In this document: in pieces, positions 10,032 to 48,469 of the stretch
How positions within the stretch are numbered: position 1 is the first letter of the stretch
How the letters are laid out: each line of letters begins with the position of its first letter
Assembly (NCBI GenBank): GCA_947598285.1
Contig: CANQFE010000002.1
Location: 1 to 61,104, forward strand
Direction of reading: 5' to 3'
DNA from: an uncultured Bacilli bacterium
GTDB taxonomy: Bacteria > Bacillota_I > Bacilli_A > RF39 > UBA660
DNA length: 61,104 nucleotides
The notes under the pieces: model-generated
The model's database searches: none
Told to the model about the DNA's origin: nothing
What the model saw: the letters and a program-made list of their open reading frames with translations, nothing else
Translations under genes and position numbers: made by a program

Positions 10032-11102
10032 ATGAAAAATGAAAAAGTTTATTTTAGAAAAGATGGGCGTTACTATGCTCAGTATAAGAAAGGAGTGAAA
10101 GAAAATGGAAAAATATTTTATGGTTATATTTATGGTAAAACAAAAGAGGAAGTCTTAAATAAAAAAGAAAAGATGATAAATTCAAATTCAATTATTGATA
10201 AATCTTTATTTAGTGGAGATATTTTTAATTGGCTCAAAAGTATAAAAATATCTTGTAAAATATCTACTTATTCCAATTATGAATATACTTGTTATTCTCA
10301 TTTAATCCCTAACTTTGGTTTTTATAAACGAAGTCAAATCAATAGAAATATGATTGATGATTTTACACAGAAATTATTAAATAATGGTTTAGAATCAAAA
10401 ACAGTAAAAGATATTCTAATAGTTCTAAATCAAATTTTAAAATATGTGGGAATACATATAAATATTACAATGCCAAAAGTAAAGAAGAAAAAAATACAAA
10501 TTTTTTCAAAAGAAGAACAATTAAAATTTGAAAAATATCTTTCTCAAAATTTAAATGAAGATAGTTTAGGAATGTATTTAAGTTTATATACAGGACTTAG
10601 AATAGGTGAAATATGTGCTTTAAAATGGAAAAATATTGATTTAAAAGAAAATGTAATTCATGTTGAAAAAACTTTAATACGGGTTAAAAATTATGATAAA
10701 TTTATACCAAAAAAAACAGTGGTTATATTAGATGATCCAAAATCTTCGGCTTCAATTAGAGATATACCAATTCCTAGATTCTGTGTTTCCTTATTAAAAA
10801 AATATAAAAATGATGATGAAGTATTTCTTTTAACGGGAACAAAGGAATTTATTGAACCTCGAAGCTATGCAAATCATTTTAAAAATGTAATGAAAATTCT
10901 TCATATGGAAAAATATCATTTTCATATTTTAAGGCATACATTTGCAACAAGATGTGTTGAAAATAAAAGCAATATAAAAGCATTAAGTGAAATACTTGGT
11001 CATTCCAGTGTAAAAATCACATTAGAAAGATATGTACATCCTAGTTTTGATGAAAAAGTAAATATGATAAATCATTTAAGTCCATTAGTTACAATAGCAT
11101 AA
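10032..11102 (+). CDS. Tyrosine recombinase / phage- or Tn916-type integrase
   Basis: N-terminal arm-type DNA-binding motif (YFRKDGRYYAQYKKG...YGYIYGKTKEEV). Catalytic region LRIGEICALKW, HILRHTFATRC and LGHSSVKITLERYVH. Confidence 0.85.
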   Translation: MKNEKVYFRKDGRYYAQYKKGVKENGKIFYGYIYGKTKEEVLNKKEKMINSNSIIDKSLFSGDIFNWLKSIKISCKISTYSNYEYTCYSHLIPNFGFYKRSQINRNMIDDFTQKLLNNGLESKTVKDILIVLNQILKYVGIHINITMPKVKKKKIQIFSKEEQLKFEKYLSQNLNEDSLGMYLSLYTGLRIGEICALKWKNIDLKENVIHVEKTLIRVKNYDKFIPKKTVVILDDPKSSASIRDIPIPRFCVSLLKKYKNDDEVFLLTGTKEFIEPRSYANHFKNVMKILHMEKYHFHILRHTFATRCVENKSNIKALSEILGHSSVKITLERYVHPSFDEKVNMINHLSPLVTIA

Positions 11103-11133: not shown

Positions 11134-11288
11134 ACTAAATTTATAGAGAGTATAAGTTCCTAAAGTTACTATCTACTTTAAATTCTTTATTTACTTTATA
11201 AAATTCTCATTGTGTTATATGTATTTCCTTTTTTCTATTCTTATTAAAAAGAAAAATATTATTAAAATTGATGCAGTGTGATATTTCT

Positions 11289-11355
11289 GTCAATTGACGT
11301 CTGGGGGGGGGGTAATTGATAAAATCATCATAAATAGGTATGGTGATTTTTTCAA
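11289..11355 (+). promoter_or_regulatory. Conserved promoter cassette, copy 1: palindrome/-35, poly-G spacer, extended -10, inverted repeat, SD
   Basis: GTCAATTGAC 11289-11298. TTGACG 11294-11299. G10 11303-11312. TGaTAAAAT with TAAAAT at 11320-11325. Inverted repeat AAAATCATCA (11321-11330) / TGGTGATTTT (11341-11350). GGTGAT Shine-Dalgarno. Near-identical cassettes occur at 27358 and 29683. Confidence 0.6.
11303..11312 (+). repeat. Homopolymeric G10 tract
   Basis: Ten consecutive G read directly from the sequence. Confidence 0.95.
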
Positions 11356-12723
11356 ATGAAATTACAAAGATTTAAAGAAAAAAATAAGAAGAAACAAAGA
11401 ATTATAGTATTTACCATAGCTTGTGTGTTATTAATCACAGGAGTTTTCTTGTATAAAACATTTGCAAGTTTTCAAGTGATCGAAAATGAAGATTTCATTA
11501 ATGGAGATATAAACGACCCAGGAGATATTTACTTTGCTTTTTATAAAGATAATGTGATCCAAAAAGATATGCCAAAAAAGAAAGATGGATATGTCTTAGA
11601 TGAAAGTAAAAGTTATTGTGGAGTCACAGGTGGAAATGACTCTGATATCAAAGTACATGTTACGGAAAATGATATGATTTTTGTAGAAGGAGTCACGACA
11701 TCAAGAACAAAATGTAATTTGTATTTTATAAAAGGAGCCTATATCTTAGGTAAAGGAGTTCCCTTAGCTTCAGAAGGAGAAGATGGACTTTATGAAGTTC
11801 CTCATGGAACAGAAGTTTCAGGAACAATCAATGATACAGGATTTCAACAAATTGAATATAGATATGCCGGAAAGAGTCCAAATAACTATATTAGATTTAA
11901 TGATGAAGATTGGCGGATCATCGGTTTAGTAAATGTATTGACAACCAATGGAACAGTAGAACAAAGAGTCAAGATTGTAAAAGATGATTCAATTGGAGAG
12001 TATAGTTGGGATAGTTCATTACCAAATGTGGATTTTGGATATGGAGTGAATGAATGGACTGAAGCGGACTTAAAAACGGAATTAAATGAGTATTATTTAA
12101 ATAGTACTTCTGGAACTTGTTATATAAATAACAATAATACTTCTCAGCCTTGTGACTTTACTCAAACAGGCATCAAAAATAATTATAAAGGTTTTATAGA
12201 AGAAGTTATTTGGAATACCGGAACAAATGGAGACACCAATTTTTCGTATCTAAACTCAACCAATCAAATTTATGAACTAGAAAGAAGTTCAAATTTAAGT
12301 GACCTATGTAAATCAGAAGAAAATGATTATAGGTGTAATGATGACGTACAGAGAAAGGCAAGTTGGCAAGGAAAAATAGGTTTAATGTATCCAAGCGATT
12401 TTGGTTATGCAACAATTGGTGTTGCTAATGGAGTTTCATGCAAAACTATGAATTTTGATAATTGGGAAAATAACAGTGATTGTTTTGATAACGATTGGTT
12501 ATTTATTAAAAATGGAGAACAATGGTTATTGACACCCAATTCTAATCCAACATATGGATATACTGTATATTATCAGACTTCGACGGGACGTTTAGGGTAT
12601 CATCCGGCTTATTTTCCTAAAAATGTTAAGCCCACCTTTTATTTAAAACCAAATGTAAAAATTATTAGTGAAGGAGATGGTAGTGAAGATAATCCATTTC
12701 AACTAGTTCAAATTTTAAAATGA
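11356..12723 (+). CDS. Secreted/surface protein paralog A (N-module A + C-module X)
   Basis: N-terminal basic region plus hydrophobic segment (IIVFTIACVLLITGVFLYKTFASFQV). N-terminal ~127 aa closely match ORF 29749. The C-terminal ~310 aa match ORF 27424 (EYRYAGKSPNNYIRFNDEDWRIIGLVNVL, YPSDFGYA, PTFYLKPNVKI). Confidence 0.85.
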   Translation: MKLQRFKEKNKKKQRIIVFTIACVLLITGVFLYKTFASFQVIENEDFINGDINDPGDIYFAFYKDNVIQKDMPKKKDGYVLDESKSYCGVTGGNDSDIKVHVTENDMIFVEGVTTSRTKCNLYFIKGAYILGKGVPLASEGEDGLYEVPHGTEVSGTINDTGFQQIEYRYAGKSPNNYIRFNDEDWRIIGLVNVLTTNGTVEQRVKIVKDDSIGEYSWDSSLPNVDFGYGVNEWTEADLKTELNEYYLNSTSGTCYINNNNTSQPCDFTQTGIKNNYKGFIEEVIWNTGTNGDTNFSYLNSTNQIYELERSSNLSDLCKSEENDYRCNDDVQRKASWQGKIGLMYPSDFGYATIGVANGVSCKTMNFDNWENNSDCFDNDWLFIKNGEQWLLTPNSNPTYGYTVYYQTSTGRLGYHPAYFPKNVKPTFYLKPNVKIISEGDGSEDNPFQLVQILK

Positions 12724-12874: not shown

Positions 12875-13927
12875 ATGCAAACTGTAAAAAAGTATAGTTG
12901 GTCTGTTTGTTTATTTTTAATTTTACTTTTTGGAACTTATTATTTTGTTTTAAAAGATTATTCGATTCAAACTTTTTTTGATTCTGTTTCTCATTGTCAT
13001 TTTTTCTTTTTATTTTTGGCTTTTCTTGCATTATTTGGTTATTGCTTTTTTGCAGCAGTTTATTTTAAAAGAATTTTAAAATATTTTGGAAAAAAGATTA
13101 ATTGGTATCAAGCTTTTGGGTATCATTTTACCGAAGTTTATTTTTCAGCGATTACGCCAAGTAGTATTGGAGGACAGCCTGTACAAATGGTAGAGATGAA
13201 TAAAGATCATATTCCTTATCGAATCAGTACAGTTTTAATTTTATTAAATACTCTTATTTATAAAATTGCTTTACTTACTGTCGCGGTGATTGGTTTTGTT
13301 TTTTGCTCTCATTTATTATTTTCGCAAAATGCTTTGTTTGTTTGGCTTTTTCTTTTAGGTTTTATTACAACGGTTTTCTTGATTCTTTTTTTTCTTGCTT
13401 TAGTTTATTCAAAAAAATTAGTTCGAAAGACTGCTGATCTTTTATTTCGATTAGGAAGAAAGTTAAAACTTAAAAAAATAGATGATTGGCAAGCGAAGTT
13501 TGAAGAAGCTTTTCAAGGATATCAGGAATGTGCCAAGTTGACCAAACAAAATCCTCGGATTTTACTAGAAGCATATCTTATTTTGCTTTGCCAAAGAGTT
13601 TGTTTACTTTCTATTTGTTATTTTATTTATTTATCTTTTGGACTTCGTGAGTTTAATATTATTCAAATTTTAGCTTTTCAATCTTGTATTACTTTGGCAA
13701 GTGATTTTATGCCTTTTCCAGGTGGTTTAGTTGTGAGCGAAGGATTATTATTACAAATTAATCAATTTATTTATGGATCTTCTTTAGCAACATCGGCTAT
13801 GATTTTATTTCGAAGTGTTAGTTTCTATTTTATTGTTATTTTCAGTGGTATTTTCTATCTATTTTTTCATTTTATGAAACGTAAAAAAGCAAATGATTTT
13901 GAAATAGAAGGGAAAGAAGAAGTGTGA
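12875..13927 (+). CDS. UPF0104 / MprF-flippase-like (lysylphosphatidylglycerol synthase TM region family) membrane protein
   Basis: Multi-pass hydrophobic protein with YFSAITPSSIGGQPVQ, typical of this family. AGGTGA RBS before ATG 12875 (ORF track start 12866). Confidence 0.75.
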   Translation: MQTVKKYSWSVCLFLILLFGTYYFVLKDYSIQTFFDSVSHCHFFFLFLAFLALFGYCFFAAVYFKRILKYFGKKINWYQAFGYHFTEVYFSAITPSSIGGQPVQMVEMNKDHIPYRISTVLILLNTLIYKIALLTVAVIGFVFCSHLLFSQNALFVWLFLLGFITTVFLILFFLALVYSKKLVRKTADLLFRLGRKLKLKKIDDWQAKFEEAFQGYQECAKLTKQNPRILLEAYLILLCQRVCLLSICYFIYLSFGLREFNIIQILAFQSCITLASDFMPFPGGLVVSEGLLLQINQFIYGSSLATSAMILFRSVSFYFIVIFSGIFYLFFHFMKRKKANDFEIEGKEEV

Positions 13928-14301
13928 AGAAGGGATTTACATTAATAGAACTTATTATTACCATTGGTTTAATCGCGGCTGTCGGAACTATTGTTGTCGC
14001 GAATATGAGCAGTACTTTAAGTAGGGAGCAAGATACTCAATATCAAATGTTTGTCAAAAAGTTAGAGAATGCCGCTTGTACTTATGTGGAATTAAAAGTA
14101 TTTCAAGAAACTTATGGGGTAAATCAAAAAGAAACTTGTAAAAATTCATCTTGTACAATAAAAGTAAAAGATCTTTTAGATTCTGGTTTAATAGAAGAGA
14201 AAGATTTAAAGGATCCTAAAATTCAAGATTACATTTCTTCTAATACTTCAATTCGAATTAGTTATCCTGGACAAGTGAAAACGTGCACCTATCAAGGATA
14301 A
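13924..14301 (+). CDS. Type IV prepilin / pseudopilin
   Basis: MKKG|FTLIELIITIGLIAAVG is a prepilin cleavage/methylation motif with Glu at +5. The GTG start overlaps the upstream TGA (GTGA). Confidence 0.85.
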   Translation: MKKGFTLIELIITIGLIAAVGTIVVANMSSTLSREQDTQYQMFVKKLENAACTYVELKVFQETYGVNQKETCKNSSCTIKVKDLLDSGLIEEKDLKDPKIQDYISSNTSIRISYPGQVKTCTYQG

Positions 14302-25410: not shown

Positions 25411-26692
25411 ATTTGAAATGAAAAAAAATGAATTAATTGAAAAAGGACTTTTAGAAGGATATTTATTAATTAGTGAAGTTGTAGAGATTGCAAAAGAGTG
25501 TCGGGCGACAAAAGAACAAATTACTTTGTTTGAACAAGAAATTACGGAGCAAGGAATTGAATTATTAGAAACAGCTCCTATAGAAAAGAAAAATGTGATT
25601 GAAAAAGTAAGAGAAATTAAATCTTTTGAAGAAAGAAAAGAAGAGTTAATTGCGAAAGGAAAAAAGGCAGGCAAAATTACTTATGAAGAACTTGCGACAT
25701 CTTTAAAAGGACTTGATGTTGATAATGATTCATTAGATGATCTTTATAATTCTTTAATGGAAAATGGCATTGAAGTAGTCGGTGAAGATGATGAAGAAAA
25801 TGGGGGAGCTGGAAAAGATCAACCAATTATTTTAGATGATGCTGAAATTACCAAGGATGTCAATATTAATGATCCAGTAAGGATGTATTTAAAAGAAATT
25901 GGTCGTATTTCTTTATTAAGTGCGGAAGAAGAAATGGAATTATCTATTAAAGTTGCGAATGGCGATGAAGTTGCTAAAAATAAGCTTGCCGAATCTAATT
26001 TACGATTAGTCGTTTCGATTGCAAAAAGATATGTTGGTAGAGGTCTTTTATTCTTAGATTTAATTCAAGAGGGAAATATTGGTCTTATGAAAGCTGTCGA
26101 TAAGTTTGATTATGATAAAGGATATAAATTTTCCACTTATGCGACTTGGTGGATCCGTCAAGCTATCACGAGGGCTTTAGCTGATCAAGCAAGAACAATA
26201 CGTGTTCCAGTTCATATGGTAGAAACGATTAATAAAATGGCACGAATTCAAAGACAACTTACTTTGGAACTAAATCGTGAACCATCTGAAGAAGAGATTG
26301 CAAGAAAAATGGGAATATCTGTAGATAAGGTTCGTGATGTCATTAAAATTAGTCAAGATCCCGTTTCTTTGGAAACACCTATTGGCGAAGAAGATGATTC
26401 TCATTTAGGAGATTTTGTTAAAGATATTAATATGATGACTCCAGAAGAATATGCGACTAATGAAATCTTAAAAGAAGAAATTAAATCAGTTTTAGAAACT
26501 TTGCAAGAAAGGGAACAAGAAGTGTTGGAACTTCGTTTTGGATTAATTGATGGAACTAGTCATACGCTTGAAGAAGTTGGAAAACGTTTTAATGTTACAC
26601 GTGAACGAATTAGACAAATTGAAGCCAAAGCATTACGTAAGTTAAGACATCCATCTCGTGCAAAAAAATTAAAGGATTTTTTGACTGATTGA
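25394..26692 (+). CDS. sigA: Primary sigma factor SigA/RpoD
   Basis: Regions 2-4 ([32 protein letters not shown]). The start may be ATG 25403. Overlaps the dnaG end. Confidence 0.95.
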
Positions 26693-27345
26693 TGAAAAGT
26701 AGACGTTTAGAAGTCATTTGTGATTTTTTAGCTTTTCATGATCGGATCATTGATATTGGATGTGATCATGCTTATGTTGCTATTGAAATGGCAAGACGGG
26801 GTGCTAAGAAAATATTGGCTACAGATATTCATCCTAATGCTTTAAAAATTGCTCAAAAAAATATTCAAGATGCTCATTTTTCTGAAACTATTGAAACTCA
26901 ATTAGCCGATGGCCTTTCTACTATTGATACTAAAGACTATCAAACTTTAGTGATTGCTGGTATGGGAACATCAACGATTTGTCATATTTTGTCATTAAAA
27001 GAAAAACTCGTTCCCATTCAAAAAATAATTTTACAAACTAATCGTGATTTTTATGAATTACGAAAGTTTATGCAAGAAAATAATTTTACTTTAAAAGAAG
27101 AAAAAGTTATTTTTGAAGAAAATCATTATTATCCTATTATGAAGTATATAAAAGGGAAGCAAAATTTATCGGAAGATGAATTAGAATTTGGTTTTTTTCA
27201 AAAAGAAAATATTTCATATTATCAATTTTTAAAACAAAAATATTGTTCTATTTTAGAGAAAATTCCTCAAACTAGTTATAAGGAAAGAGAAAAATATTGT
27301 AAAAAAATAGATAGTTTAAATTGTTATATAGCAAAATGTCATTAA
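26689..27345 (+). CDS. trmK: tRNA (adenine22-N1)-methyltransferase TrmK-like
   Basis: [13 protein letters not shown] motif. Position directly after sigA, as for B. subtilis yqfN. Confidence 0.7.
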
Positions 27346-27357
27346 AATATTTTTCGT

Positions 27358-27423
27358 GTCAATTGACCTCTGGGGGGGGGGTAATTGATAAAATCATCAT
27401 AAGTAGGTATGGTGATTTTTTAA
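27358..27423 (+). promoter_or_regulatory. Conserved promoter cassette, copy 2
   Basis: GTCAATTGAC 27358-27367. TTGACC 27363-27368. G10 27372-27381. TGaTAAAAT with TAAAAT at 27389-27394. Same inverted repeat and SD as copy 1. Confidence 0.6.
27372..27381 (+). repeat. Homopolymeric G10 tract
   Basis: Ten consecutive G read directly. Confidence 0.95.
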
Positions 27424-29322
27424 ATGAAACTAAAAAATAAAAAAATAATTATAGTATTCAGTATCTTGGTATTAATATGTACAATGGCAGGTGTAAGCTA
27501 TGCTGTCTGGCAAATGACATTAACCCAAGAAGATGATAATTTAATTACATCAAGTTGTTTTCAAGTGACCATGACAGAGAAAAATCCAATTAGTTTACAA
27601 AATGCAATTCCAATCACAGAGCAAGATGGAGAATCTTTAGTTCCTTATACCTTTACCATTCATAATGAATGTGGAGAAAATGCCTTGTATGAAATTCATT
27701 ATGAAATATTAAATAATACAACATTTACTGAAAAAGAAGAACAAGAATTTATTAAAATTAAGTTCCAAGAAGAAAAACCAAAGTTCTTAAATAGTTTAGA
27801 CAAAACAGACAAAACATTAAACAATGCAAGTAGAGCATATGTGATTGAAAGAGGATATATCAAAGCAAATGAAACAAAAAACTATGAATTAAAAGTATGG
27901 TTAGATGAAAACGTGACAGTAGATGATGGTGTTATGGGAAAAATATTTGCAAGTGAAGTAACAATCACAGCCAGATATGACAGAGAAATCCTAACAAGTC
28001 CAGAAGTAGAGTTAGTATTAAGTAGGTGTAGTGATGATATCATAGCAAGTGTTAAGACAAGTGGAAATGTAATAGATACTTATGAATACACAATAGATAG
28101 TGAAGATGCAATAACTGAAAATGAGGCAACACATACGTTTACAGATCAAGGAAGAGGAACAAGGCATCATGTTAAAGTAAAAGTAACAGATGTTTATGGA
28201 AATATAACAGAAAAAGAAGGAGATATAGAAATACCAGAATATCCAACATTACTAGGAAAGCAAATAGGAAAAGATATAGAAGTAGTTACAGAAGGAGAAG
28301 GCTTATATGAAGTAACACATTGTGAAGGAACAATAGAGAATGATGAATTAACAGATGTTCAAAAAGAAGGATTCTTATTAGAAGAATACCGATATGCAGG
28401 AAAGAATCCAAATAATTATATTACATTTAATGATGAAGAATGGCGAATTATCGGTTTAGTAAATGTATTAGTATCTCAAGCTGATGGAAGCGAAAAGGTA
28501 GAACAAAGAGTAAAAATTGTAAAAAATGAAAGCATCGGACAATATAGTTGGGATACTTCACCATCAGATGTCAATAGTGGTTGGGGAGTAAATGAATGGA
28601 GCCAAGCAGATTTAATGAAGTTACTAAACCCTGGATATGAGAACAATCAAGATAAAGATAGTAATGGCTCCGATATTAAAGTCAATAATAGTCTATATTG
28701 GACTGGTGAAAGCGGTAATTGTTATAGTTCTTCTAGAAATCAAAAAAAATCATGTGATTTTGCAAATGGTTTAAATGATGTAGATTCCTATATTGCAAAT
28801 GATATTATATGGAATACAGGAGCAAATCAAAATAATGAAAAATATACTCAATTAAAAGCAAGCGATTTTTATTTAGAAGAGAGATCTAATGGAATTGGAA
28901 AAAATTGCCAACCTAATGATACTTATGTTAATGATTCTGGTACATCATATCATCTTTGTACGGATAGTGTAGAAAGGAAGACAACATGGGAGGGGAAAGT
29001 CGCTTTACTCTATCCGAGTGACTATGGTTATGCATCTGGTGATAGATCATGTTTGGATAGTTATCTTTATAATTGGAGTAGCAACGACTGCTATCAGCAA
29101 AATTGGCTTTTTCAGGAAAAAGATATTTGGACATTAACGACTGGTACTTCAATATATTCTGCTGCAAGTTATATCTTTTTTATTCGATATTTAGGTCATG
29201 TTCCTATGCATTCTGCAGAAACTGGATATTATGTATTCCCAACATTATATTTAAAACCCGAGATAAAAATTGTCAATGGCGAAGGGAAAGCTGATGGTTC
29301 ATATGAATTATCAGAAAATTAA
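27424..29322 (+). CDS. Secreted/surface protein paralog B (distinct N-module + C-module X)
   Basis: Signal-anchor MKLKNKKIIIVFSILVLICTMAGVSYAVWQ. Central beta-rich region. The C-terminal ~340 aa match ORF 11356 (EYRYAGKNPNNYITFNDEEWRIIGLVNVL, YPSDYGYA, PTLYLKPEIKI). Confidence 0.85.
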   Translation: MKLKNKKIIIVFSILVLICTMAGVSYAVWQMTLTQEDDNLITSSCFQVTMTEKNPISLQNAIPITEQDGESLVPYTFTIHNECGENALYEIHYEILNNTTFTEKEEQEFIKIKFQEEKPKFLNSLDKTDKTLNNASRAYVIERGYIKANETKNYELKVWLDENVTVDDGVMGKIFASEVTITARYDREILTSPEVELVLSRCSDDIIASVKTSGNVIDTYEYTIDSEDAITENEATHTFTDQGRGTRHHVKVKVTDVYGNITEKEGDIEIPEYPTLLGKQIGKDIEVVTEGEGLYEVTHCEGTIENDELTDVQKEGFLLEEYRYAGKNPNNYITFNDEEWRIIGLVNVLVSQADGSEKVEQRVKIVKNESIGQYSWDTSPSDVNSGWGVNEWSQADLMKLLNPGYENNQDKDSNGSDIKVNNSLYWTGESGNCYSSSRNQKKSCDFANGLNDVDSYIANDIIWNTGANQNNEKYTQLKASDFYLEERSNGIGKNCQPNDTYVNDSGTSYHLCTDSVERKTTWEGKVALLYPSDYGYASGDRSCLDSYLYNWSSNDCYQQNWLFQEKDIWTLTTGTSIYSAASYIFFIRYLGHVPMHSAETGYYVFPTLYLKPEIKIVNGEGKADGSYELSEN

Positions 29323-29371
29323 AGTTATGATTTTCCTTGAAAAACAAGGTAAAAAGTGATAAAGTGTATAT

Positions 29372-29489
29372 AGATGAAGGAAACTTCATAAAATAAAAAA
29401 GGAACATTCAATGTCGCATGTTGAGTGTTGCCAATATAAGTTGGTATCACCTAAATCATTATTGCTGAGTTAGGTGATTCTTTTATTTT
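29372..29489 (+). ncRNA. Candidate antisense small RNA (type I antitoxin-like), copy 2
   Basis: Promoter TTGAAA (29337-29342)-17 nt-TGaTAAAGT (-10 at 29360-29365). 5' hairpin identical to copy 1 (29374-29389). Hairpin AACATTCAA/TTGAGTGTT (29403-29429). Terminator ATCACCTAA/TTAGGTGAT (29446-29478) plus TCTTTTATTTT. Confidence 0.45.
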
Positions 29490-29566
29490 AGGATTACAAA
29501 TAGTAATATTATAAGTAAAAGGATAATGATAATCAAAAAGAAAATTAAAAAATCCTTCTTGTTCAT
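29483..29566 (-). CDS. Small hydrophobic peptide, type I toxin-like (27 aa, MNKKDFLIFFLIIIILLLIILLFVILK)
   Basis: GGGAGGTG RBS 7 nt upstream of the ATG. Minus-strand TGtTATAAT (-10 at 29635-29630). Minus-strand terminator formed by hairpin 29403-29429 plus a U-run. Confidence 0.45.
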   Translation of the reverse strand: MNKKDFLIFFLIIIILLLIILLFVILK

Positions 29567-29682
29567 ATTATCACCTCCCTTCAATTAAGAAGCTCGGCAA
29601 TCACCCAACTATTGAATATTCCTAAAATAATTATAACACACTTAAAAAAACAAATCAGCTATAAAATAATAATTGTCCACAT

Positions 29683-29748
29683 GTCAATTGACCTCTGGGG
29701 GGGGGTATTTGATAGAATCATCATAAATAGGTATGGTGATTTTTTCAA
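29683..29748 (+). promoter_or_regulatory. Conserved promoter cassette, copy 3
   Basis: GTCAATTGAC 29683-29692. TTGACC 29688-29693. G9 29697-29705. TGaTAGAAT with TAGAAT at 29713-29718. Same inverted repeat and SD. Confidence 0.6.
29697..29705 (+). repeat. Homopolymeric G9 tract
   Basis: Nine consecutive G read directly. Confidence 0.95.
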
Positions 29749-31611
29749 ATGAAACTACAAAAGTTTAAAGAAGAAAAGAAAAATCAAAAAAGTATCATAA
29801 TCTTTACCATAGCTTGTGTATTACTAATCACAGGAGTTTTCTTATATAAAACATTTGCAACTTTTCAAGTCATCGAAAATGAAGATCTTATTAATGGAGA
29901 TGTAAGTGATCCAGGAGATATCTATTTTGTATTCTATAAAGATAATCAATTAACCAAAGAAATGCCTCAAAAAGGAACAGGATATGCTTATGATTATGAA
30001 AAAAGTCATTGTGAAGTTCCAGGAAAAGAAGAAAGTAAAGCAGTACCATACTTTGATAGTATTGATTGGAGTGTAACAGTAAGAGGAATGACAGAAAGAC
30101 CAACAAAATGTACAATCTATTTTTATCAAGGATATCAAGAAGGAATATTAAAAGGAGCAGACCCAGTGTTAGAAAGACCATTAGTACCAGTGCATATTGA
30201 TGAGAAAGGCAAAGTTACCAAAGCAGATCCAAGTGAAGAGTGGTATAACTATGAACAAAAAGAATGGGCGAATGCAGTGATATTAGTAGATGAAACAAAG
30301 CAATATGAAGAAAATGAAATCATAGAAGAAAAAGATATAGAAAGTTATTTTGTATGGATCCCAAGATATCGATATCAATTAAAAGAAAGTGAAGCAACAT
30401 TTAATACTTATAGTTCCATCATGAATCCAGAAACATATAAGATTCAAAATGTCGAAGAATTTTATTCAAAAATAGAAGGAGGGAACAAAGGAAAAAATGA
30501 AGCCTTTGTAATAGAATTTGAAAACATAACAGAAACACCAAGTGATGGAACAAATGAAGAGAAATGGTTAACCCATCCAGCATTCACATCATTTAATAGT
30601 AATGGATTCTGGGTAGGAAAATTTGAAACGGGATATAATCAAAGTGATAATTCAACAAAAGAAATTACAACAACTAATTGGACCAAAGCAAATGCAGAAA
30701 ATACTAGCAATACGAATAAAGAAGAACCAACAAAAGTCATCATCAAACCAAATGTGTATAGTTGGAGAAATATCAATGCATCGAATGCCTTTTATACAAG
30801 TTATAATTACCAAAGAGAATTAGAAAGTCATATGATGAAGAATACCGAATGGGGAGCAGTAGCTTATTTATCCCAAAGTAAGTATGGAAGATGCAATGGT
30901 TCAACTTGTGAAGAAGTAAGGATCAATAATAATGGTAATTATATTACGGGGTATAGTGCCAAAAATGCCCCAACGGTAGGAACTTCGGCATACAATAATA
31001 CAGATTCAGTGACTTTAAATCAAGATGGAACGAATGGATATCATTATGGTAGCAATAATGCCTCTAAACAAGAGTCAAGTACAACAGGAAATTATAGTGG
31101 AATCTATGATATGAGTGGTGGAGCTTATGAATATGTGATGGGAATGATGAAAGGAAGTACCACCACTTCTTCACCAGCAAGTGGAGCAAATAAAGATTGG
31201 AATTCAGGATTTAAAGGCTTATATAGTGATTGTAACGAGAATGGAGGTTCTATTGAATGTAATGGTAATATAATGAATACAACAGGCAAGGATTGGCCAA
31301 ATAGCAAATATTACGATTTATATGATCATAAAACAACAAGCGTAGAATACCAAAGAGGTTATTTAGGAGATGCTACAAAAGAATTTGGTCCATTCTATTC
31401 AGTAAATTGGCTAAAAGAAGGTAGTTCTTATAGCACAAGATATGTTGGAAGTTATAACGCAAACGAATCGTACTTTGTGCGTTCTGGCGCTCCATGGTTT
31501 ATACGTGGTTCAGTTTATTCAGGAGGGACAGATGCAGGAGTTGGAGCATTCAATGCCAACACTGGAGGTGTGGTTAAAGATTACAGTTTCCGCGTTGTTT
31601 TAACACCTTAA
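29749..31611 (+). CDS. Secreted/surface protein paralog C (N-module A + distinct C-module Y)
   Basis: The first ~128 aa are nearly the same as ORF 11356. The C-terminal ~350 aa are different and carry motifs FWVGKFETG, NTEWGAVAYLSQSKYG, YDMSGGAYEYVMG and WFIRGSVYSGG, reminiscent of an FGE-sulfatase/C-type-lectin-like fold. Confidence 0.85.
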   Translation: MKLQKFKEEKKNQKSIIIFTIACVLLITGVFLYKTFATFQVIENEDLINGDVSDPGDIYFVFYKDNQLTKEMPQKGTGYAYDYEKSHCEVPGKEESKAVPYFDSIDWSVTVRGMTERPTKCTIYFYQGYQEGILKGADPVLERPLVPVHIDEKGKVTKADPSEEWYNYEQKEWANAVILVDETKQYEENEIIEEKDIESYFVWIPRYRYQLKESEATFNTYSSIMNPETYKIQNVEEFYSKIEGGNKGKNEAFVIEFENITETPSDGTNEEKWLTHPAFTSFNSNGFWVGKFETGYNQSDNSTKEITTTNWTKANAENTSNTNKEEPTKVIIKPNVYSWRNINASNAFYTSYNYQRELESHMMKNTEWGAVAYLSQSKYGRCNGSTCEEVRINNNGNYITGYSAKNAPTVGTSAYNNTDSVTLNQDGTNGYHYGSNNASKQESSTTGNYSGIYDMSGGAYEYVMGMMKGSTTTSSPASGANKDWNSGFKGLYSDCNENGGSIECNGNIMNTTGKDWPNSKYYDLYDHKTTSVEYQRGYLGDATKEFGPFYSVNWLKEGSSYSTRYVGSYNANESYFVRSGAPWFIRGSVYSGGTDAGVGAFNANTGGVVKDYSFRVVLTP

Positions 31612-32010: not shown

Positions 32011-33636
32011 ATGAATGTCGAAGCTGGTAATTCTATGAATCAAACACCATTAAAGCCTTTGAAATATCCTGGATTAGGTTTATTCATGTCTTTTAAATAT
32101 GTTGTTGAAGTAATTATTTATATTATAAAATGTGCTTGGAGAGGTTTTTTATATCTATTTAAAGATATTCCTTCTTCTTTATGGCAACATGCAAGTGGTA
32201 AAGTAGATGAAGCATATCGCGGAACAAAAGTTGCTATAGAAAAAGTTCAAAATAAAGAGGAATCATCGTCTAAGAAAAGTATTTTGAACATGGATTTGAA
32301 TGATCTTTTCAAAAATTCAAAATATATGAAGAAGAAAATTCAAGCATTAGAGCGAGAAAAACTTTTACTATTAGAAGATTTAAAAGGAGCAGGCGGTATC
32401 CGTAGTAAAGAACCTAATATTTATCGCTTTACTGCTAAAAATCCAGAAGGTAAAATTGAAACAGGAATTATTAATGGATATTCAAAGTTAGATGTGAATA
32501 CTTTTTTGGTTCAAGATGGTTATGATGTTTATAAAATCGAAACAAATCAAATGATTGATTTTTTCTATGGTCAATCGAGTATTTTTGCACCTAAATTAAA
32601 AAATAAAGATTTACTTTTTTGGTTAACTCAATTGTCTACTTATTTGAAAAGTGGTCTTACATTATCTGATTCCATTCGAATTTTAAACCAACAAATGAAT
32701 AAAAAAACAACTTATAAAAGAGCTTTTCAAGCAATTGTTTATGAGCTTACGATGGGAGAATCTTTTTCGACAGCCTTGGAAAAACAAGGAGGCATGTTTC
32801 CAGCATTACTCATTAATATGATTAAGGCGGCTGAAGCAACTGGCGAATTAGAGGAAACGCTTGAAGATATGGCCAATTATTATGAAGAAATTGAAAAAAC
32901 AAGAAAACAAATGTTATCTGCATTGACTTATCCATCTGTTATTATGGTATTTAGTTTAGCAGTTGTAACTTTTATTATGTTATTTGTTATTCCAGAATTT
33001 GTTAAAGTTTATGATGATGCTGGGGCAGAAATATCTGGAATTACTTTGTTTGTTTTAAATATGAGTAATTTTTTACAAAAGAATATTGTCTTATTAATTA
33101 TTATTTTTTGTTTCATTCTTTTAGTATTAATTTATTTTTATAAAAATGTGAAGGCCTTTCGAAAAAGTGTTCAACAATTTGCAATGAAACTACCTGTAGT
33201 GGGAAATATAATCATTTATAATGAAATGACAATTTTTTCTAAAACATTTTCTTCTTTATTACGAAATAATGTTTTTATTACGGATAGTATTGATATTTTA
33301 AGTAAAATTACAAATAATGAAATTTATAAAGAGATTATGTATAATACTATCAATAACATTGTAAAAGGTGAAAAAATTAGTACAGCTTTTAAAGATCAAT
33401 GGGCTATTCCTGATGTCGCATATTTTATGATTGTTACAGGAGAATCAACTGGACAGCTTGCTGAGATGATGGCTAAGGTTAGTTCTTATTATCAAGAGTT
33501 GCATCGAAATATTATTAATAGTTTAAAGTCATTTATTGAACCAATTATGATTTCTTTTTTGGCTTTAGTCGTTGGAGGAATTATTTTAGCAGTTATTGTA
33601 CCAATGTTTAAACTTATGCAAATTGTTGAGATGTAG
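32011..33636 (+). CDS. pilC: Type IV pilus / T2SS platform protein (GspF/PilC family) with ~135-aa N-terminal extension
   Basis: Two GspF-type repeats with three TM segments. The typical start YRFTAKNPEGKIETG appears only at about aa 138. GGGAAGGG RBS. Confidence 0.85.
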   Translation: MNVEAGNSMNQTPLKPLKYPGLGLFMSFKYVVEVIIYIIKCAWRGFLYLFKDIPSSLWQHASGKVDEAYRGTKVAIEKVQNKEESSSKKSILNMDLNDLFKNSKYMKKKIQALEREKLLLLEDLKGAGGIRSKEPNIYRFTAKNPEGKIETGIINGYSKLDVNTFLVQDGYDVYKIETNQMIDFFYGQSSIFAPKLKNKDLLFWLTQLSTYLKSGLTLSDSIRILNQQMNKKTTYKRAFQAIVYELTMGESFSTALEKQGGMFPALLINMIKAAEATGELEETLEDMANYYEEIEKTRKQMLSALTYPSVIMVFSLAVVTFIMLFVIPEFVKVYDDAGAEISGITLFVLNMSNFLQKNIVLLIIIFCFILLVLIYFYKNVKAFRKSVQQFAMKLPVVGNIIIYNEMTIFSKTFSSLLRNNVFITDSIDILSKITNNEIYKEIMYNTINNIVKGEKISTAFKDQWAIPDVAYFMIVTGESTGQLAEMMAKVSSYYQELHRNIINSLKSFIEPIMISFLALVVGGIILAVIVPMFKLMQIVEM

Positions 33637-33644
33637 GTGGGGAT

Positions 33645-34409
33645 ATGAATTTTTATTATGCTTTTTTATTCTTTCTTTTGGGGAGCGTTTTAGCTTCTTT
33701 TTATGGAGTTGTCGCGACGCGACTTCCTCAAAATCAATCGCTTATTAAGCCTAGGAGTCATTGTGTAAAATGTCATCATGTTCTTTCATGGTATGAATTA
33801 ATTCCTATTTTTTCGTTTCTTTTTTTGAAAGGAAAATGTCGTAAATGTCATGAAAAATTATCTATTTATGAACCAATTATGGAGTTTTTGCTAGGACTTT
33901 CTTTTAGTATGTCTTATCTTTTTTTTGGTTTTAGTTATTCATTATGGATGTCTTTGATTCTTCTTTCTTTAGTTTGTCTTATTTTTGTTAGTGATTTTCA
34001 ATATATGATTATTTTAGATTCACCTTTAGTTATTTCAAGCTTTCTTATTTTTGGTTTAAAATGGTATTATTTTGGAATTTCTGAAGCTTGGAATGCTTTA
34101 GAGGATGGAGTAATTTTGTTTTTGATTTTTCTTTTTATTGGATATCTTGGGAGTCTTCTTTTTAAAAGAGAAGCTCTTGGAGGAGGGGATATTAAGCTTT
34201 CGTTTGTAATGGGGTTATCTTTATCTACTCCTTATGCTTTAATGGCACTTATTTTATCTACTTTTCTTGCTTTACCTTATGCTACATTTAGCCTTTGTAG
34301 TACTAATGAAAGGGAAGTTCCATTTGGGCCTTTTTTAGTGGCTGCTTTGGCAATTGTTTTTTTCTTTCAAGATAAATTTGCTTATATTTTAGAGTTATTT
34401 CGTTTTTAA
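33645..34409 (+). CDS. pilD: Prepilin peptidase (A24 family)
   Basis: CVKCHH...CRKCHE zinc motif, GGGDIKL active-site motif, polytopic. Confidence 0.9.
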   Translation: MNFYYAFLFFLLGSVLASFYGVVATRLPQNQSLIKPRSHCVKCHHVLSWYELIPIFSFLFLKGKCRKCHEKLSIYEPIMEFLLGLSFSMSYLFFGFSYSLWMSLILLSLVCLIFVSDFQYMIILDSPLVISSFLIFGLKWYYFGISEAWNALEDGVILFLIFLFIGYLGSLLFKREALGGGDIKLSFVMGLSLSTPYALMALILSTFLALPYATFSLCSTNEREVPFGPFLVAALAIVFFFQDKFAYILELFRF

Positions 34410-34427
34410 TAAAAAAAGAAACATTTT

Positions 34428-35747
34428 TTAAATGTCTAATGTTTCTAAATCTAATGTTTCAGCGTTCATTTTAAGATTATTTTCTGGTATTTTGTCTTCT
34501 TTTTCTTTTTGCTCACGCCCAATAATTGCGTCTTTTAAAGCTTTTTGTTCTTCACCTAAATCATCTTCAATATCAATGACTCTTAAAACTTCTTCAAAAC
34601 TTGTTAAACCATTGATGACTTTTATTAAACCATCGTCCAGAAGACTAATGGTATTTTTATTTTGATAAATTAAACTACGAATTTTTTCTTTTGTTTCATT
34701 GTTTACGATGGCATCTCTAATTTCTTGATTTAAAATTAAGACTTCTTGAAGAGCAATTCGGCCTTTATATCCATTGATACAATCTGGACAACCCACAGGT
34801 TTATAAATTTGATTCATATCAATTCCTAAAGCAGTTTTGAAAACTCTTTTTTCGTAAGGAGTTGTTTCTCTTGCTTCTCGACATTTCGGACATAGTTTTT
34901 TACATAGTCTTTGCGAGATAATCGCTTCCAGAGCTGAACCTAAAAGATAACGTTCTACATCCATGTCTACTAAACGTTCAATGGTTGTTAATGAGTTATT
35001 GGTATGGATTGTAGATAATACTAAATGTCCTGTGATACTTGCTCGAACGGCAATTCGGGCTGTTTCATTATCACGAATTTCACCAATCATAATGATATCT
35101 GGATCTTGACGTAAAATGGAACGAAGAGCACTAGCAAATGTTAAACCAATTTCACTCATGGTTTGAACTTGATTGATTCCAGATATTTTCATTTCGACAG
35201 GGTCTTCTACAGTAATAATATTTCTTTCAATGGTGTTTAATTGTTGTAAAATAGCATACACGGTAGTCGATTTTCCGGTTCCGGTCGCACCTGTTACTAA
35301 AATAATTCCGTTTGGTTTGGCAATTGCTTTTTGAACTTTCTCTAAATTTTCATCAGAAAATCCTAATGTATCAAGACTACTTAGGGAAGAAGAATAGTCA
35401 AGTAAACGAACAACAACTTTTTCGCCGTATACAATTGGAAGAGTAGAAACACGAAGGTCTAAATCTTTTCCATCGACTTGCATTTTAATTGCTCCATCTT
35501 GAGGAACTCTTGATTCTGTAATATTCATTCCAGAGATAATTTTTACTCTAGTGACTAGATTTTTTTTTACACTTTCGGGAACTTTGGCATATAAAAGTAA
35601 TTCGCCATCAATCCGAATACGAACATTTAAAACATCTGGAGTAGGATCAAAATGGATATCACTAGCTCTTTTTCTAGCGGCATCGATGAGCATATTATTT
35701 ACGATATCGACAATTGGCTGATTGGTATAATCATATTCTGTAAACAT
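34428..35747 (-). CDS. pilB: Type IV pilus assembly ATPase (GspE/PilB family)
   Basis: Walker A GATGTGKSTT, Asp/His boxes and tetra-Cys motif CPKC...CPDC. Convergent with pilD. Confidence 0.9.
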   Translation of the reverse strand: MFTEYDYTNQPIVDIVNNMLIDAARKRASDIHFDPTPDVLNVRIRIDGELLLYAKVPESVKKNLVTRVKIISGMNITESRVPQDGAIKMQVDGKDLDLRVSTLPIVYGEKVVVRLLDYSSSLSSLDTLGFSDENLEKVQKAIAKPNGIILVTGATGTGKSTTVYAILQQLNTIERNIITVEDPVEMKISGINQVQTMSEIGLTFASALRSILRQDPDIIMIGEIRDNETARIAVRASITGHLVLSTIHTNNSLTTIERLVDMDVERYLLGSALEAIISQRLCKKLCPKCREARETTPYEKRVFKTALGIDMNQIYKPVGCPDCINGYKGRIALQEVLILNQEIRDAIVNNETKEKIRSLIYQNKNTISLLDDGLIKVINGLTSFEEVLRVIDIEDDLGEEQKALKDAIIGREQKEKEDKIPENNLKMNAETLDLETLDI

Positions 35748-47914: not shown

Positions 47915-47947
47915 ACATATTATATACTAAGGTGATGGTTTTCAAAT

Positions 47948-48469
47948 ATGAATAGATACTGGTTTTTAGGAGTAGAACCAAAAACAAAAGATTTTATAGT
48001 CATTAAAGATTTAGTAAATCTTTTTTTAGAGGAAAAGGAAAAAAAGCAAAAAATTTCTTATTTTTTAGAGTTATATCATCTTTGTGATTCTAAAACTTTC
48101 TTAGCTATTTGGAATCATCTTAGAAAAGAAAAGCTTGTGGAAGAGTCTTTTGACATTAAAAATATTGTTGAATATTCGGTCATAATTGGTAAACATAATG
48201 AGAAATATCGTTATGTGACACTTTATGAATATTTTCCAAGAAATGTTGATGCTCAAGTGATTTTAAAAACGTATAAAAGAACGAAACTTTTTATTCATTT
48301 TGTTCATGAAGCTATTTTTGAAAATGATATGGACACTTTACAAGAATTAAGTGGTTTTCTTCTTCTTATGCCATGCTATCAGTGGGTGATTGATACTTTT
48401 CTTCCTTTATCAAGTGATCATTTAAAATCAGAAAAATTGCTTCTTTCTAAAACAAATCAAAAACTGTAA
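47948..48469 (+). CDS. Hypothetical protein (173 aa)
   Basis: ORF with plausible composition between mutS and nusB. No motif recognised. Confidence 0.5.
   Translation: MNRYWFLGVEPKTKDFIVIKDLVNLFLEEKEKKQKISYFLELYHLCDSKTFLAIWNHLRKEKLVEESFDIKNIVEYSVIIGKHNEKYRYVTLYEYFPRNVDAQVILKTYKRTKLFIHFVHEAIFENDMDTLQELSGFLLLMPCYQWVIDTFLPLSSDHLKSEKLLLSKTNQKL

What the first reader, a model, noticed from the sequence alone, without database searches (positions are those of the whole stretch)
27358..27426. Second copy of the poly-G promoter cassette (G10) upstream of paralog B
TTGACC (27363-27368), TCT, G10 (27372-27381), TAAT, TGATAAAAT (TAAAAT at 27389-27394) and ATG at 27424. The cassette is almost base-for-base identical to copy 1, although the coding sequence that follows starts with an unrelated N-terminal module. 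The cassette therefore behaves as a portable regulatory unit rather than as part of a gene duplication. The spacer is again 20 bp as sequenced. Independent tracts at three loci would allow combinatorial ON/OFF expression of the family.
Basis: partly seen in the sequence, partly recalled or inferred. Interest (0 to 1): 0.8.

Follow-up and report, generated by a model that had tools for sequence, protein, structure and literature searches.

The report
Poly-G phase-variable promoter cassette, copy two
A run of ten G's sits between the two halves of a promoter in a 76-base cassette placed in front of three mosaic surface-protein genes of an uncultured gut bacterium; this is most likely a slippage-driven on/off switch of a well-known kind, found here in a lineage where it has not been described.

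Summary
G10 (27372-27381) lies between TTGACC (-35) and TGATAAAAT (extended -10), giving a 20-bp spacer, 30 nt before ATG 27424.

- **A discrete unit.** The cassette (27357-27432) is 73/77 identical to copy 1, while its flanks are at background identity.
- **Non-random tracts.** The three tracts are the only G or C runs of 6 or more in the 61-kb window.
- **Portable.** Genes A, B and C are mosaics (A = X+Y, B = Z+Y, C = X+W).
- **Length varies.** Other assemblies of the same species, with identical flanks, show G9 against G10 at this locus and G9 against G13 at copy 3.
- **Conserved in relatives.** Distant relatives (uncultured low-GC gut Bacilli) carry the same architecture before homologous genes and type IV pilin genes. 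Some paralogs carry poly-G frameshift switches in the 5' coding region instead.
- **Off-optimum spacing.** Ordinary promoters of the lineage peak at 17 bp, so G10 (20 bp) is probably a low or OFF state.
- **An unreported feature.** A conserved hairpin plus T-run overlaps the -10 and the Shine-Dalgarno, probably blocking read-through.

Expression was not measured. This is a new member of a known kind (compare M. hyorhinis vlp, meningococcal porA/opc).

The parts
27357..27432 (+). Cassette copy 2: the whole conserved unit, from TGTCAATTGAC to the third codon of gene B
   Evidence: 73/77 identical to copy 1 and 72/76 to copy 3, with flanks at background identity
27358..27367 (.). Perfect 10-bp palindrome GTCAATTGAC overlapping the -35
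   Evidence: Exact copies occur only at the three cassettes in the window. It is not conserved in relatives, and its function is unknown.
27363..27368 (+). -35 hexamer TTGACC
   Evidence: TTGAC is conserved at the same place relative to the G tract in relatives.
27372..27381 (+). G10 homopolymer tract inside the promoter spacer, the presumed slippage site
   Evidence: It is G9 in sample ERZ27249467 with identical flanks.
27386..27394 (+). Extended -10, TGATAAAAT (TG at 27386-27387, TAAAAT at 27389-27394)
   Evidence: TGnTAnAAT is conserved in 12 of 13 G10 cassettes of the family loci.
27390..27419 (+). Hairpin: 5' arm 27390-27401, loop 27402-27407, 3' arm 27408-27419. It overlaps the -10 and the Shine-Dalgarno. 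The predicted transcription start (about 27401, inferred) lies at the end of the 5' arm.
   Evidence: dG -10.6 kcal/mol, z -3.8. It is kept through compensatory changes in related cassettes.
27411..27415 (+). Shine-Dalgarno GGTGA, 8 nt before the ATG, followed by T6 (27416-27421)
   Evidence: Read from the sequence
27424..29322 (+). Gene B (632 aa): N-terminal signal/anchor, beta-sandwich module Z, and Cys-rich module Y shared with gene A
   Evidence: AlphaFold2 model has pLDDT 75. There are only generic Ig/FN3-like fold matches and no Pfam, NCBIfam or PDB sequence match.
29446..29489 (+). Terminator-like hairpin plus T-rich tail after gene B, making B a single-gene unit
   Evidence: dG -13.2 kcal/mol
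11288..11364 (+). Cassette copy 1 (G10 at 11303-11312) in front of gene A (11356-12723, modules X+Y)
   Evidence: It is G10 also in sample ERZ27249467.
29682..29757 (+). Cassette copy 3 (G9 at 29697-29705, 19-bp spacer) in front of gene C (29749-31611, modules X+W)
   Evidence: It is G13 in sample ERZ27249462, whose contig ends 27 nt later.

Best explanation
The 76-bp cassette is a self-contained promoter, leader and start-codon module for a family of mosaic secreted or surface proteins. It carries a housekeeping-sigma type promoter, with -35 TTGACC and extended -10 TGATAAAAT, whose spacer contains a G10 tract.

**Switch mechanism (inferred).** Slipped-strand mispairing at the tract during replication adds or removes G's. 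This changes the -35/-10 distance and so the promoter strength. The lineage's ordinary promoters prefer 17 bp. The sequenced G10 state (20 bp) is therefore most likely weak or OFF, and G7-G8 (17-18 bp) would be ON. Each of the three genes has its own tract and its own terminator, so the genes switch independently.

**Second built-in element.** A hairpin plus T-run spans the end of the -10 and the Shine-Dalgarno. Transcripts that start at this promoter (predicted +1 about 27401) lack the 5' arm and can be translated. Read-through transcripts from upstream would form the hairpin, which sequesters the Shine-Dalgarno and probably terminates. Expression would then depend only on the tract state.

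**Shown:** the anatomy, its conservation, the modularity of the cassette, the tract-length differences between samples, and the 17-bp optimum of the lineage.

**Inferred:** the effect of tract length on transcription, the transcription start, and the role of the hairpin.
For: 1. **The tracts are not chance.** They are the only G or C runs of 6 or more in 61 kb, and all three sit at the same promoter position.
2. **Length polymorphism with identical flanks.** Copy 2 is G10 in five assemblies and G9 in one. Copy 3 is G9 against G13. Two Logan contigs stop 4-5 nt after the copy-2 tract, as expected at a heterogeneous homopolymer.
3. **The architecture is conserved far beyond sequence similarity.** In 80 loci encoding homologs of 30-47% identity from other species, 13 promoters have TTGACn + about 3 nt + G10 + about 7 nt including TGn + TAnAAT. 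In 1.13 Mb of housekeeping-anchored DNA from relatives there are only 7 G or C runs of 7 or more, and 4 of them are of this promoter type.
4. **The same tracts serve as frameshift switches.** In the same family in relatives, poly-G tracts also lie in the 5' coding region. Five of six are out of frame as assembled, and each of those five is one step from in-frame.
5. **G10 is off-optimum.** Ordinary TTGACn/TAnAAT pairs in 1.68 Mb of the lineage peak at 17 bp (53, against about 10 background). Tract-bearing promoters sit at 20 bp in 13 of 20 cases. Cassettes with G8 have 16-17 bp spacers.
6. **The controlled genes are surface or secreted proteins.** In species-representative genomes, 63 low-GC poly-G promoters (G10 in 35, 20-bp spacer in 30) precede genes with N-terminal signal or anchor sequences. 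These include the X and Z modules and type IV pilins.
7. **Orthologous cassettes in metagenomes differ in length.** G9/G11, G10/G12 and G7/G8 pairs occur with identical flanks, and near-identical pilin-gene cassettes carry G9, G10 or G11.
8. **The hairpin is real.** dG is -10.6 to -14 kcal/mol, z -3.8 to -5.2. Eleven of 16 related cassettes pair 9/9, with compensatory changes. In an independent set, 12 of 55 pair 9/9 against 0.6% of shuffles, and 13 of the 21 best are followed by a T-run.
9. **The mechanism type is established elsewhere.** Examples are M. hyorhinis vlp poly(A) (PMC10502178, citing Citti and Wise 1995) and meningococcal porA poly-G and opc poly-C (reference list of PMC5084427).
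Against: - No expression or read-level data are available.
- At this locus five of six assemblies agree on G10. The single G9 comes from an assembly at about 4x coverage, so it could be a homopolymer error.
- G10 is three steps from the 17-bp optimum, which is an unusually long path for a switch.
- G10 with a 20-bp spacer is strikingly uniform across species. This could mean the 20-bp state is itself the selected, functional one.
- An extended -10 can work with a poorly placed -35, so tract length might tune expression rather than switch it.
- The genome encodes a complete MutS, so mismatch repair may damp slippage.
- The hairpin has only two G-C pairs. The terminator scan, which requires at least three, did not report it.
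Confidence: 0.7

Rival explanations
1. The G tract is a static promoter element: a fixed-length spacer, a DNA-structure element or the binding site of a regulator. The extended -10 promoter would be expressed or regulated conventionally. The few length differences would be sequencing or assembly noise, or neutral polymorphism.
For: G10 with a 20-bp spacer is remarkably uniform: 13 of 20 tract promoters in the family and sigA loci, and 23 of 35 G10 cassettes in species-representative genomes. Five of six same-species assemblies have G10 at copy 2. Extended -10 promoters depend less on the -35 (general knowledge). MutS is present.
Against: The same family uses poly-G tracts inside 5' coding regions, where only a length change can restore the reading frame. 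Cassettes with identical flanks differ by 2 to 4 G (G9/G13; G9/G11 and G10/G12), which is more than typical homopolymer miscalls. A well-conserved TTGAC placed 3 bp too far away makes sense only if the distance can change. G8 versions have 16-17 bp spacers.
Confidence: 0.15
2. The cassette's main role is as a recombination or gene-conversion substrate. Its 76 bp of homology, perhaps helped by the G tract, would shuffle promoters and N-terminal modules among paralogs and so generate the mosaics. Promoter-strength variation would be secondary.
For: The genes are mosaic, X+Y, Z+Y and X+W. The cassettes are about 95% identical while the adjacent sequences are unrelated, which suggests concerted evolution.
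Against: All three cassettes are direct repeats, so recombination between them would delete the DNA between them rather than shuffle it. A single G10 run cannot form an intramolecular quadruplex (general knowledge). No partial or silent cassettes occur in the window. The tract sits exactly in the promoter spacer in many species whose cassettes are otherwise dissimilar.
Confidence: 0.06
3. Switching is driven by the tyrosine recombinase encoded next to copy 1 (10032-11102), acting on the palindrome GTCAATTGAC. This would resemble the site-specific inversion systems of the Mycoplasma vsa, vsp and vpma genes.
For: An integrase-family gene lies 186 nt upstream of cassette 1. A perfect 10-bp palindrome marks the 5' edge of all three cassettes.
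Against: Every gene has its own complete promoter, and all cassettes point the same way. No homolog of the integrase was found in 81 other family loci. The palindrome is absent from the cassettes of relatives.
Confidence: 0.03
4. The poly-G runs are sequencing or assembly artefacts, such as the poly-G no-signal artefact of two-colour chemistry.
For: Several contigs end close to the tracts.
Against: The tract appears at the same position, with correct sequence on both sides, in six assemblies of this species. It also appears in dozens of assemblies made by different groups and assemblers, always inside a conserved promoter.
Confidence: 0.01

Closest known systems
Mycoplasma hyorhinis vlp genes (poly(A) tract in the promoter of each vlp paralog; Citti and Wise 1995, as summarised in PMC10502178)
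   Same: It is a family of surface-protein paralogs. Each paralog has its own transcript and a conserved 5' region whose promoter contains a homopolymer tract. Independent insertions and deletions give combinatorial ON/OFF expression. The host is a low-GC relative within the Bacilli/Mollicutes radiation.
   Different: The tract here is G, not A. The proteins are not homologous and are not lipoproteins (no lipobox). The sequenced state is 3 bp from the optimum. The cassette also carries a hairpin plus T-run across the -10 and Shine-Dalgarno. The organism is an uncultured gut commensal that encodes MutS.
Neisseria meningitidis porA (poly-G between -35 and -10; van der Ende 1995) and opc (poly-C promoter; Sarkari 1994), both listed in PMC5084427
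   Same: A G/C homopolymer lies in or next to the promoter spacer of an outer-surface protein gene, and its length sets -35/-10 spacing and expression level.
   Different: Those are single genes in a Gram-negative pathogen, not a portable cassette shared by mosaic paralogs. From memory, the expressed lengths there lie within one step of the common lengths.
Campylobacter jejuni poly-G contingency loci (PMC8355987, PMC8437040)
   Same: It is a low-GC genome in which G/C homopolymers of about 8-13 nt are rare, non-random and confined to surface-structure genes. Both intergenic and intragenic tracts occur. Relatives of the window organism use intragenic poly-G frameshift switches in this same family.
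   Different: In Campylobacter most tracts are intragenic and, from memory, the organism lacks mismatch repair. Here the tract is in the promoter spacer and MutS is present.
Mycoplasma mycoides Vmm (TA repeats in the promoter spacer; PMC10502178), Bordetella pertussis fim poly-C promoters (PMC1891110)
   Same: Repeat-length changes between promoter elements control a surface protein.
   Different: The repeat type or the activator dependence differs, and there is no shared cassette across mosaic genes.

Membership tests
Simple-sequence-repeat promoter-spacer phase-variation switch (porA / vlp type) | A homopolymer or short repeat of hypermutable length (about 8 or more) located between the -35 and -10 elements | tested here: met
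   G10 at 27372-27381 lies between TTGACC and TGATAAAAT. The placement is the same in copies 1 and 3 and in relatives.
Simple-sequence-repeat promoter-spacer phase-variation switch (porA / vlp type) | Tract length differs between clones or populations while the flanks stay identical | tested here: met
   Copy 2 is G10 in five assemblies and G9 in one. Copy 3 is G9 against G13. Orthologous cassettes elsewhere show G9/G11 and G10/G12, and near-identical pilin-gene cassettes show G9/10/11. The evidence is at assembly level only and the coverage is low, so it is weak for copy 2 itself.
Simple-sequence-repeat promoter-spacer phase-variation switch (porA / vlp type) | Within-population heterogeneity and reversible high-frequency switching | not testable with these tools
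   No reads or cultures are available. Contig breaks right after the tract are only suggestive.
Simple-sequence-repeat promoter-spacer phase-variation switch (porA / vlp type) | Transcription level depends on tract length | not testable with these tools
   The only support is indirect. The lineage's promoters peak at a 17-bp spacer, while tract promoters sit at 20 bp.
Simple-sequence-repeat promoter-spacer phase-variation switch (porA / vlp type) | The controlled gene encodes a surface-exposed or secreted product | tested here: inconclusive
   B has an N-terminal hydrophobic signal or anchor and beta-sandwich domains in the model. Related cassettes precede pilins and other signal-bearing proteins. 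There is no functional annotation.
Mycoplasma hyorhinis Vlp lipoprotein family | Homologous lipoprotein with a lipobox signal peptide and a poly(A) promoter tract | tested here: not met
   There is no Pfam or NCBIfam hit. The family consensus N-terminus has no conserved lipobox cysteine. The tract is poly-G. The resemblance is one of mechanism only.
Site-specific inversion switches of Mycoplasma surface-protein families (vsa, vsp, vpma) | A single promoter moved between genes by a linked tyrosine recombinase acting on inverted sites | tested here: not met
   There are three complete promoters in direct orientation. The integrase is absent from the other family loci.
Intrinsic (Rho-independent) terminator, for the hairpin 27390-27419 plus T6 | A stable G+C-rich stem directly followed by a U-run | tested here: inconclusive
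   The stem has 12 bp, dG -10.6 kcal/mol, and is followed by T6. It has only two G-C pairs, and the consensus scan did not call it. It is conserved with compensatory changes and a T-run in many cassettes.
Rfam RNA families | A match to any curated covariance model across 26500-30500 | tested here: not met
   No match at E of 1 or below.

The most novel reading that the evidence does not exclude
Across a whole radiation of uncultured, low-GC gut Bacilli, surface proteins and type IV pilins may be governed by one standard promoter design. Its elements would be -35, about 3 nt, G10, about 7 nt including TG, and the -10, often fused to a read-through-blocking hairpin that the promoter's own transcripts escape.

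On this reading the design is deliberately parked three steps from the optimal spacing. Either this enforces sparse, rare-ON expression of a large adhesin and pilin repertoire, or a 20-bp poly-G spacer is activated by a mechanism not yet known. Both would go beyond the classical switches that sit one step from ON.
Probability: 0.25. Interest if true: 0.65.

Novelty: new member of a known kind. Interest (0 to 1): 0.5.

Why it matters
Homopolymer switches in promoters are textbook biology for a few cultured pathogens. These data indicate the same device is a lineage-wide, modular regulator of surface proteins and pilins in uncultured, Mycoplasma-related gut commensals. No paper in the searched library mentions it.

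- **For biology.** It gives a concrete handle on how these reduced-genome commensals vary their surface in the gut.
- **For assembly.** It explains why their assemblies fragment at these genes.
- **For annotation.** It flags a large unannotated protein family (more than 1500 homologs, no Pfam match) as probable host- or phage-exposed surface proteins.
- **For further work.** The uniform G10/20-bp state and the promoter-embedded hairpin are testable oddities.

Tried and rejected
- **Exact-cassette scans.** Scans of genome contigs and metagenome contigs found nothing, so this species is not in those collections.
- **Contig look-ups.** Look-ups of P0002, of protein C and of the 218-aa TrmK version returned no record.
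- **Copy 3 in other samples.** The four contigs carrying pilC all start inside gene C, so they gave no further copy-3 tract.
- **Protein annotation.** Pfam, NCBIfam and PDB sequence searches of A, B and C gave nothing. Foldseek of the B model returned only generic Ig/FN3-like beta-sandwich matches with TM-scores of 0.13 or less on the query. No function is assigned.
- **RNA families.** Rfam found nothing.
- **Alternative promoter.** TTGATA(27385)-17-TATGGT, reported by the scan, was rejected. It is not conserved in related cassettes and would leave no Shine-Dalgarno.
- **Recombinase link.** A link to the integrase was rejected.
- **L248 as a locked promoter.** L248 has a decayed tract, GGGGGGAGAG, with the spacer still 20 bp. 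I considered it as a test of whether 20 bp is functional. Its gene carries TGA at the conserved Trp codon, so it is probably a pseudogene and uninformative.
- **Helix geometry.** A calculation of whether an A-like poly(dG) helix could make 20 bp equivalent to 17 bp did not work out (my own arithmetic, not a tool result).
- **Primary paper.** The porA paper (PMC176907) is not held.
Full report
**Observation.** The sequence is exactly as described.
- The elements are TTGACC at 27363-27368, TCT, G10 at 27372-27381, TAAT, TGA, TAAAAT at 27389-27394 and ATG at 27424.
- The TG at 27386-27387 makes the -10 an extended one. The spacer is 3+10+7 = 20 bp.
- Runs of nine or more G occur only at 11303-11312, 27372-27381 and 29697-29705, and shuffles give none.
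- No other G or C run of 6 or more exists in the 61-kb, 29% G+C window.

**A discrete, portable unit.** The three copies align from TGTCAATTGAC to the third codon.
- Copy 2 (27357-27432) is 73/77 identical to copy 1 and 72/76 to copy 3.
- The 80 nt upstream and, for gene B, the following 120 coding nt are at the background level for AT-rich DNA.
- The genes are mosaics. A (455 aa) is module X plus module Y. B (632 aa) is module Z plus module Y, 39% identical to A over 359 aa. C (620 aa) is module X, 59% identical to A over 128 aa, plus an unrelated module W.
- These three are the only members of the module families in the window, and all three carry the cassette.
- B and C each end with a hairpin plus T-run, so they look like single-gene units.

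**Organism and gene family.**
- The context is dnaG-sigA-trmK, then B, C, pilC, a prepilin peptidase and a pilB-like ATPase on the opposite strand.
- SigA is 88% identical at most to any species-representative genome. The nearest genomes are MAGs labelled uncultured Bacilli or Tenericutes, "Candidatus Ventrenecus avicola", "Coprobacillus sp. CAG:605" and "Mycoplasma sp. CAG:776". These are the uncultured gut relatives of Mollicutes.
- B has more than 1500 homologs. None has a name or a Pfam domain, and many genomes hold many paralogs.
- Pfam, NCBIfam and PDB sequence searches are empty.
- An AlphaFold2 model (pLDDT 75) shows an N-terminal helix, beta-sandwich domains and a Cys-rich C-terminal domain. 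It has only generic Ig/FN3-like matches.
- I read the product as a secreted or surface-anchored protein of unknown ligand.

**Does the tract vary?** Other assemblies of the same species (99.9% identical) have identical flanks and give the lengths below.

| Copy | Length and source |
|---|---|
| 1 | G10 in the window and in ERZ27249467 |
| 2 | G10 in the window, ERZ27249462, ERZ27249252, ERR10663699 and ERR10663701; G9 in ERZ27249467 |
| 3 | G9 in the window; G13 in ERZ27249462, whose contig ends 27 nt later |

- The two Logan contigs stop 4-5 nt after the copy-2 tract.
- Lengths therefore differ, and they differ independently between loci.
- Coverage of those assemblies is about 4x, so the single G9 at copy 2 is weak evidence on its own.

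**Conservation in relatives.**
- In 80 loci encoding homologs from other species (30-47% identity), 13 promoters have the same design: TTGACn, about 3 nt, G10, about 7 nt including TGn, then TAnAAT.
- In 1.13 Mb of sigA-anchored DNA from 80 relatives there are only seven G or C runs of 7 or more, and four of them are promoters of this type.
- A pattern scan of species-representative genomes found 63 low-GC examples, with G10 in 35 and a 20-bp spacer in 30.
- Most of these lie before genes whose products begin with a signal or anchor. They include X-type and Z-type N-termini and type IV pilins of the form MKKGFTLIELLAV.
- In metagenome contigs, cassettes with identical flanks carry G9/G11, G10/G12 or G7/G8. 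Near-identical pilin-gene cassettes carry G9, G10 or G11.
- Some paralogs of the same family carry the poly-G tract inside the 5' coding region. Five of six are out of frame as assembled, and each of those five is one step from in-frame.
- These tracts therefore behave as contingency loci in this lineage.

**Which state was sequenced?**
- In 1.68 Mb from the window and its relatives, ordinary TTGACn/TAnAAT pairs peak sharply at 17 bp (53, against 18 at 16 bp, 18 at 18 bp and about 10 elsewhere).
- Tract-bearing promoters sit at 20 bp in 13 of 20 cases. Cassettes with G8 have 16-17 bp spacers.
- G10 is thus 3 bp beyond the lineage's own optimum, so the sequenced state is probably weak or OFF, and ON would be G7-G8. 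This is inference.
- The uniformity of G10 at 20 bp across species is not explained by simple drift. I record it as unexplained.

**A second element in the cassette.**
- Bases 27390-27401 (AAAATCATCATA) pair with 27408-27419 (TATGGTGATTTT). The energy is -10.6 kcal/mol with z -3.8, and -13.9 and -14 kcal/mol for copies 1 and 3.
- The 5' arm starts inside the -10. The 3' arm contains the Shine-Dalgarno GGTGA (27411-27415) and the stem runs into a T6 run.
- Eleven of 16 related cassettes pair 9/9 in the core, with compensatory changes such as ATTACTCTA/TAGAGTGAT and ATACACTTT/GAGGTGTAT.
- In an independent set of 55 cassettes, 12 pair 9/9 against 0.6% of shuffles, and 13 of the 21 best are followed by a T-run.
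- G-T oppositions recur in the stem. They would be G-U pairs only in sense-strand RNA.
- A start about 7 nt after the -10 (about 27401, inferred) would leave the 5' arm out of the promoter's own transcript.
- I therefore propose that the hairpin stops or silences read-through from upstream, here from trmK, so that expression depends on the tract alone.
- In L018 the hairpin is kept although the start codon lies 130 nt further on. This favours a terminator-like role over simple Shine-Dalgarno masking. None of this was tested experimentally.

**Alternatives considered.**
- A static element or regulator site remains possible, at about 0.15. Its main support is the uniformity of G10.
- A recombination role for the cassette is unlikely to be primary, because the copies are direct repeats and no silent copies exist.
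- The neighbouring integrase is not linked to the family elsewhere.
- An artefact is excluded by recurrence across many independent assemblies.
- The scan's alternative promoter, TTGATA-17-TATGGT, is not conserved in relatives.

**Comparison with known systems.**
- In mechanism this matches homopolymer promoter-spacer switches. The closest in logic is M. hyorhinis vlp, where each paralog has its own poly(A) promoter tract and the paralogs give combinatorial expression (PMC10502178).
- The closest in chemistry are meningococcal porA poly-G and opc poly-C (references in PMC5084427).
- The closest in genome style is Campylobacter poly-G contingency loci (PMC8355987).
- It is not a member of the Vlp protein family. 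There is no homology, no lipobox, and the tract is G rather than A.
- Full-text searches found no description of such tracts in these uncultured lineages.

**Verdict.** This is a new member of a known kind, with two features worth following up: the lineage-wide G10/20-bp state and the promoter-embedded hairpin. Interest 0.5.

Noticed in passing
window 29483-29566 (- strand): A 27-aa, very hydrophobic ORF (MNKKDFLIFFLIIIILLLIILLFVILK) with a strong Shine-Dalgarno (GGGAGGTGA). It is convergent with gene B and lies between B's terminator and cassette 3. It could be a small membrane peptide or a toxin-like gene.
   Followed up: no
window 32011-35747 and 13924-14301; loci L293, L303, L317, L353, L376, L384, L388, L211, L221, L081: Type IV pilus genes flank B and C: pilC, a prepilin peptidase, a pilB-like ATPase, and a pilin-like ORF with an N-methylation motif. 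In relatives the same poly-G promoter design precedes type IV pilin genes, one with G19 (L317). One homolog (L081) has module Y fused to a pilin N-terminus. The family may therefore be linked to pili.
   Followed up: partly
window 45377-48469: A complete mutS (domains I-V) is followed not by mutL but by an unknown 173-aa ORF, then nusB and xseA. The mismatch-repair status of the organism, which matters for slippage rates, is open.
   Followed up: partly
loci L011, L056, L070, L074, L123, L049: In relatives, poly-G tracts of G9-G11 lie inside the 5' coding region of homologs of this family. Five of six are out of frame as assembled, and each of those five is one step from restoring a 385-741 aa ORF. 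These are translational switches in the same family.
   Followed up: yes
L248 14305-14613: This homologous cassette has a decayed tract, GGGGGGAGAG, with the spacer still 20 bp. Its gene has TGA at the conserved Trp codon of the GVSYAxW motif. It is probably a dead copy. A TGA=Trp genetic code seems unlikely because neighbouring ORFs are of normal length under code 11.
   Followed up: partly
window 10032-11102: A phage-integrase-family tyrosine recombinase lies directly upstream of cassette 1. No homolog lies near family genes in 81 other loci. A BspA-type leucine-rich-repeat protein lies at 7685-9913.
   Followed up: yes
window 11289-11298, 27358-27367, 29683-29692: A perfect 10-bp palindrome, GTCAATTGAC, overlaps the -35 of all three cassettes and occurs nowhere else exactly in the window. 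It is not present in the cassettes of relatives.
   Followed up: partly
L001 3' end, L017 5' end, L286, L287, L241, L298 and others: Contigs from independent assemblies often end within about 5-100 nt of a poly-G tract, and gene C is broken in four other assemblies. These loci are a systematic cause of fragmentation in MAGs of this lineage.
   Followed up: partly
loci L163, L180, L194, L166-L270 (high-GC contigs): Poly-G tracts between TTGAC and TGnTAnAAT, with length differences between samples, also occur in unrelated gut bacteria of higher G+C (G7/G8, G9/G11, G10/G12). The device is therefore widespread in metagenomes beyond this lineage.
   Followed up: no
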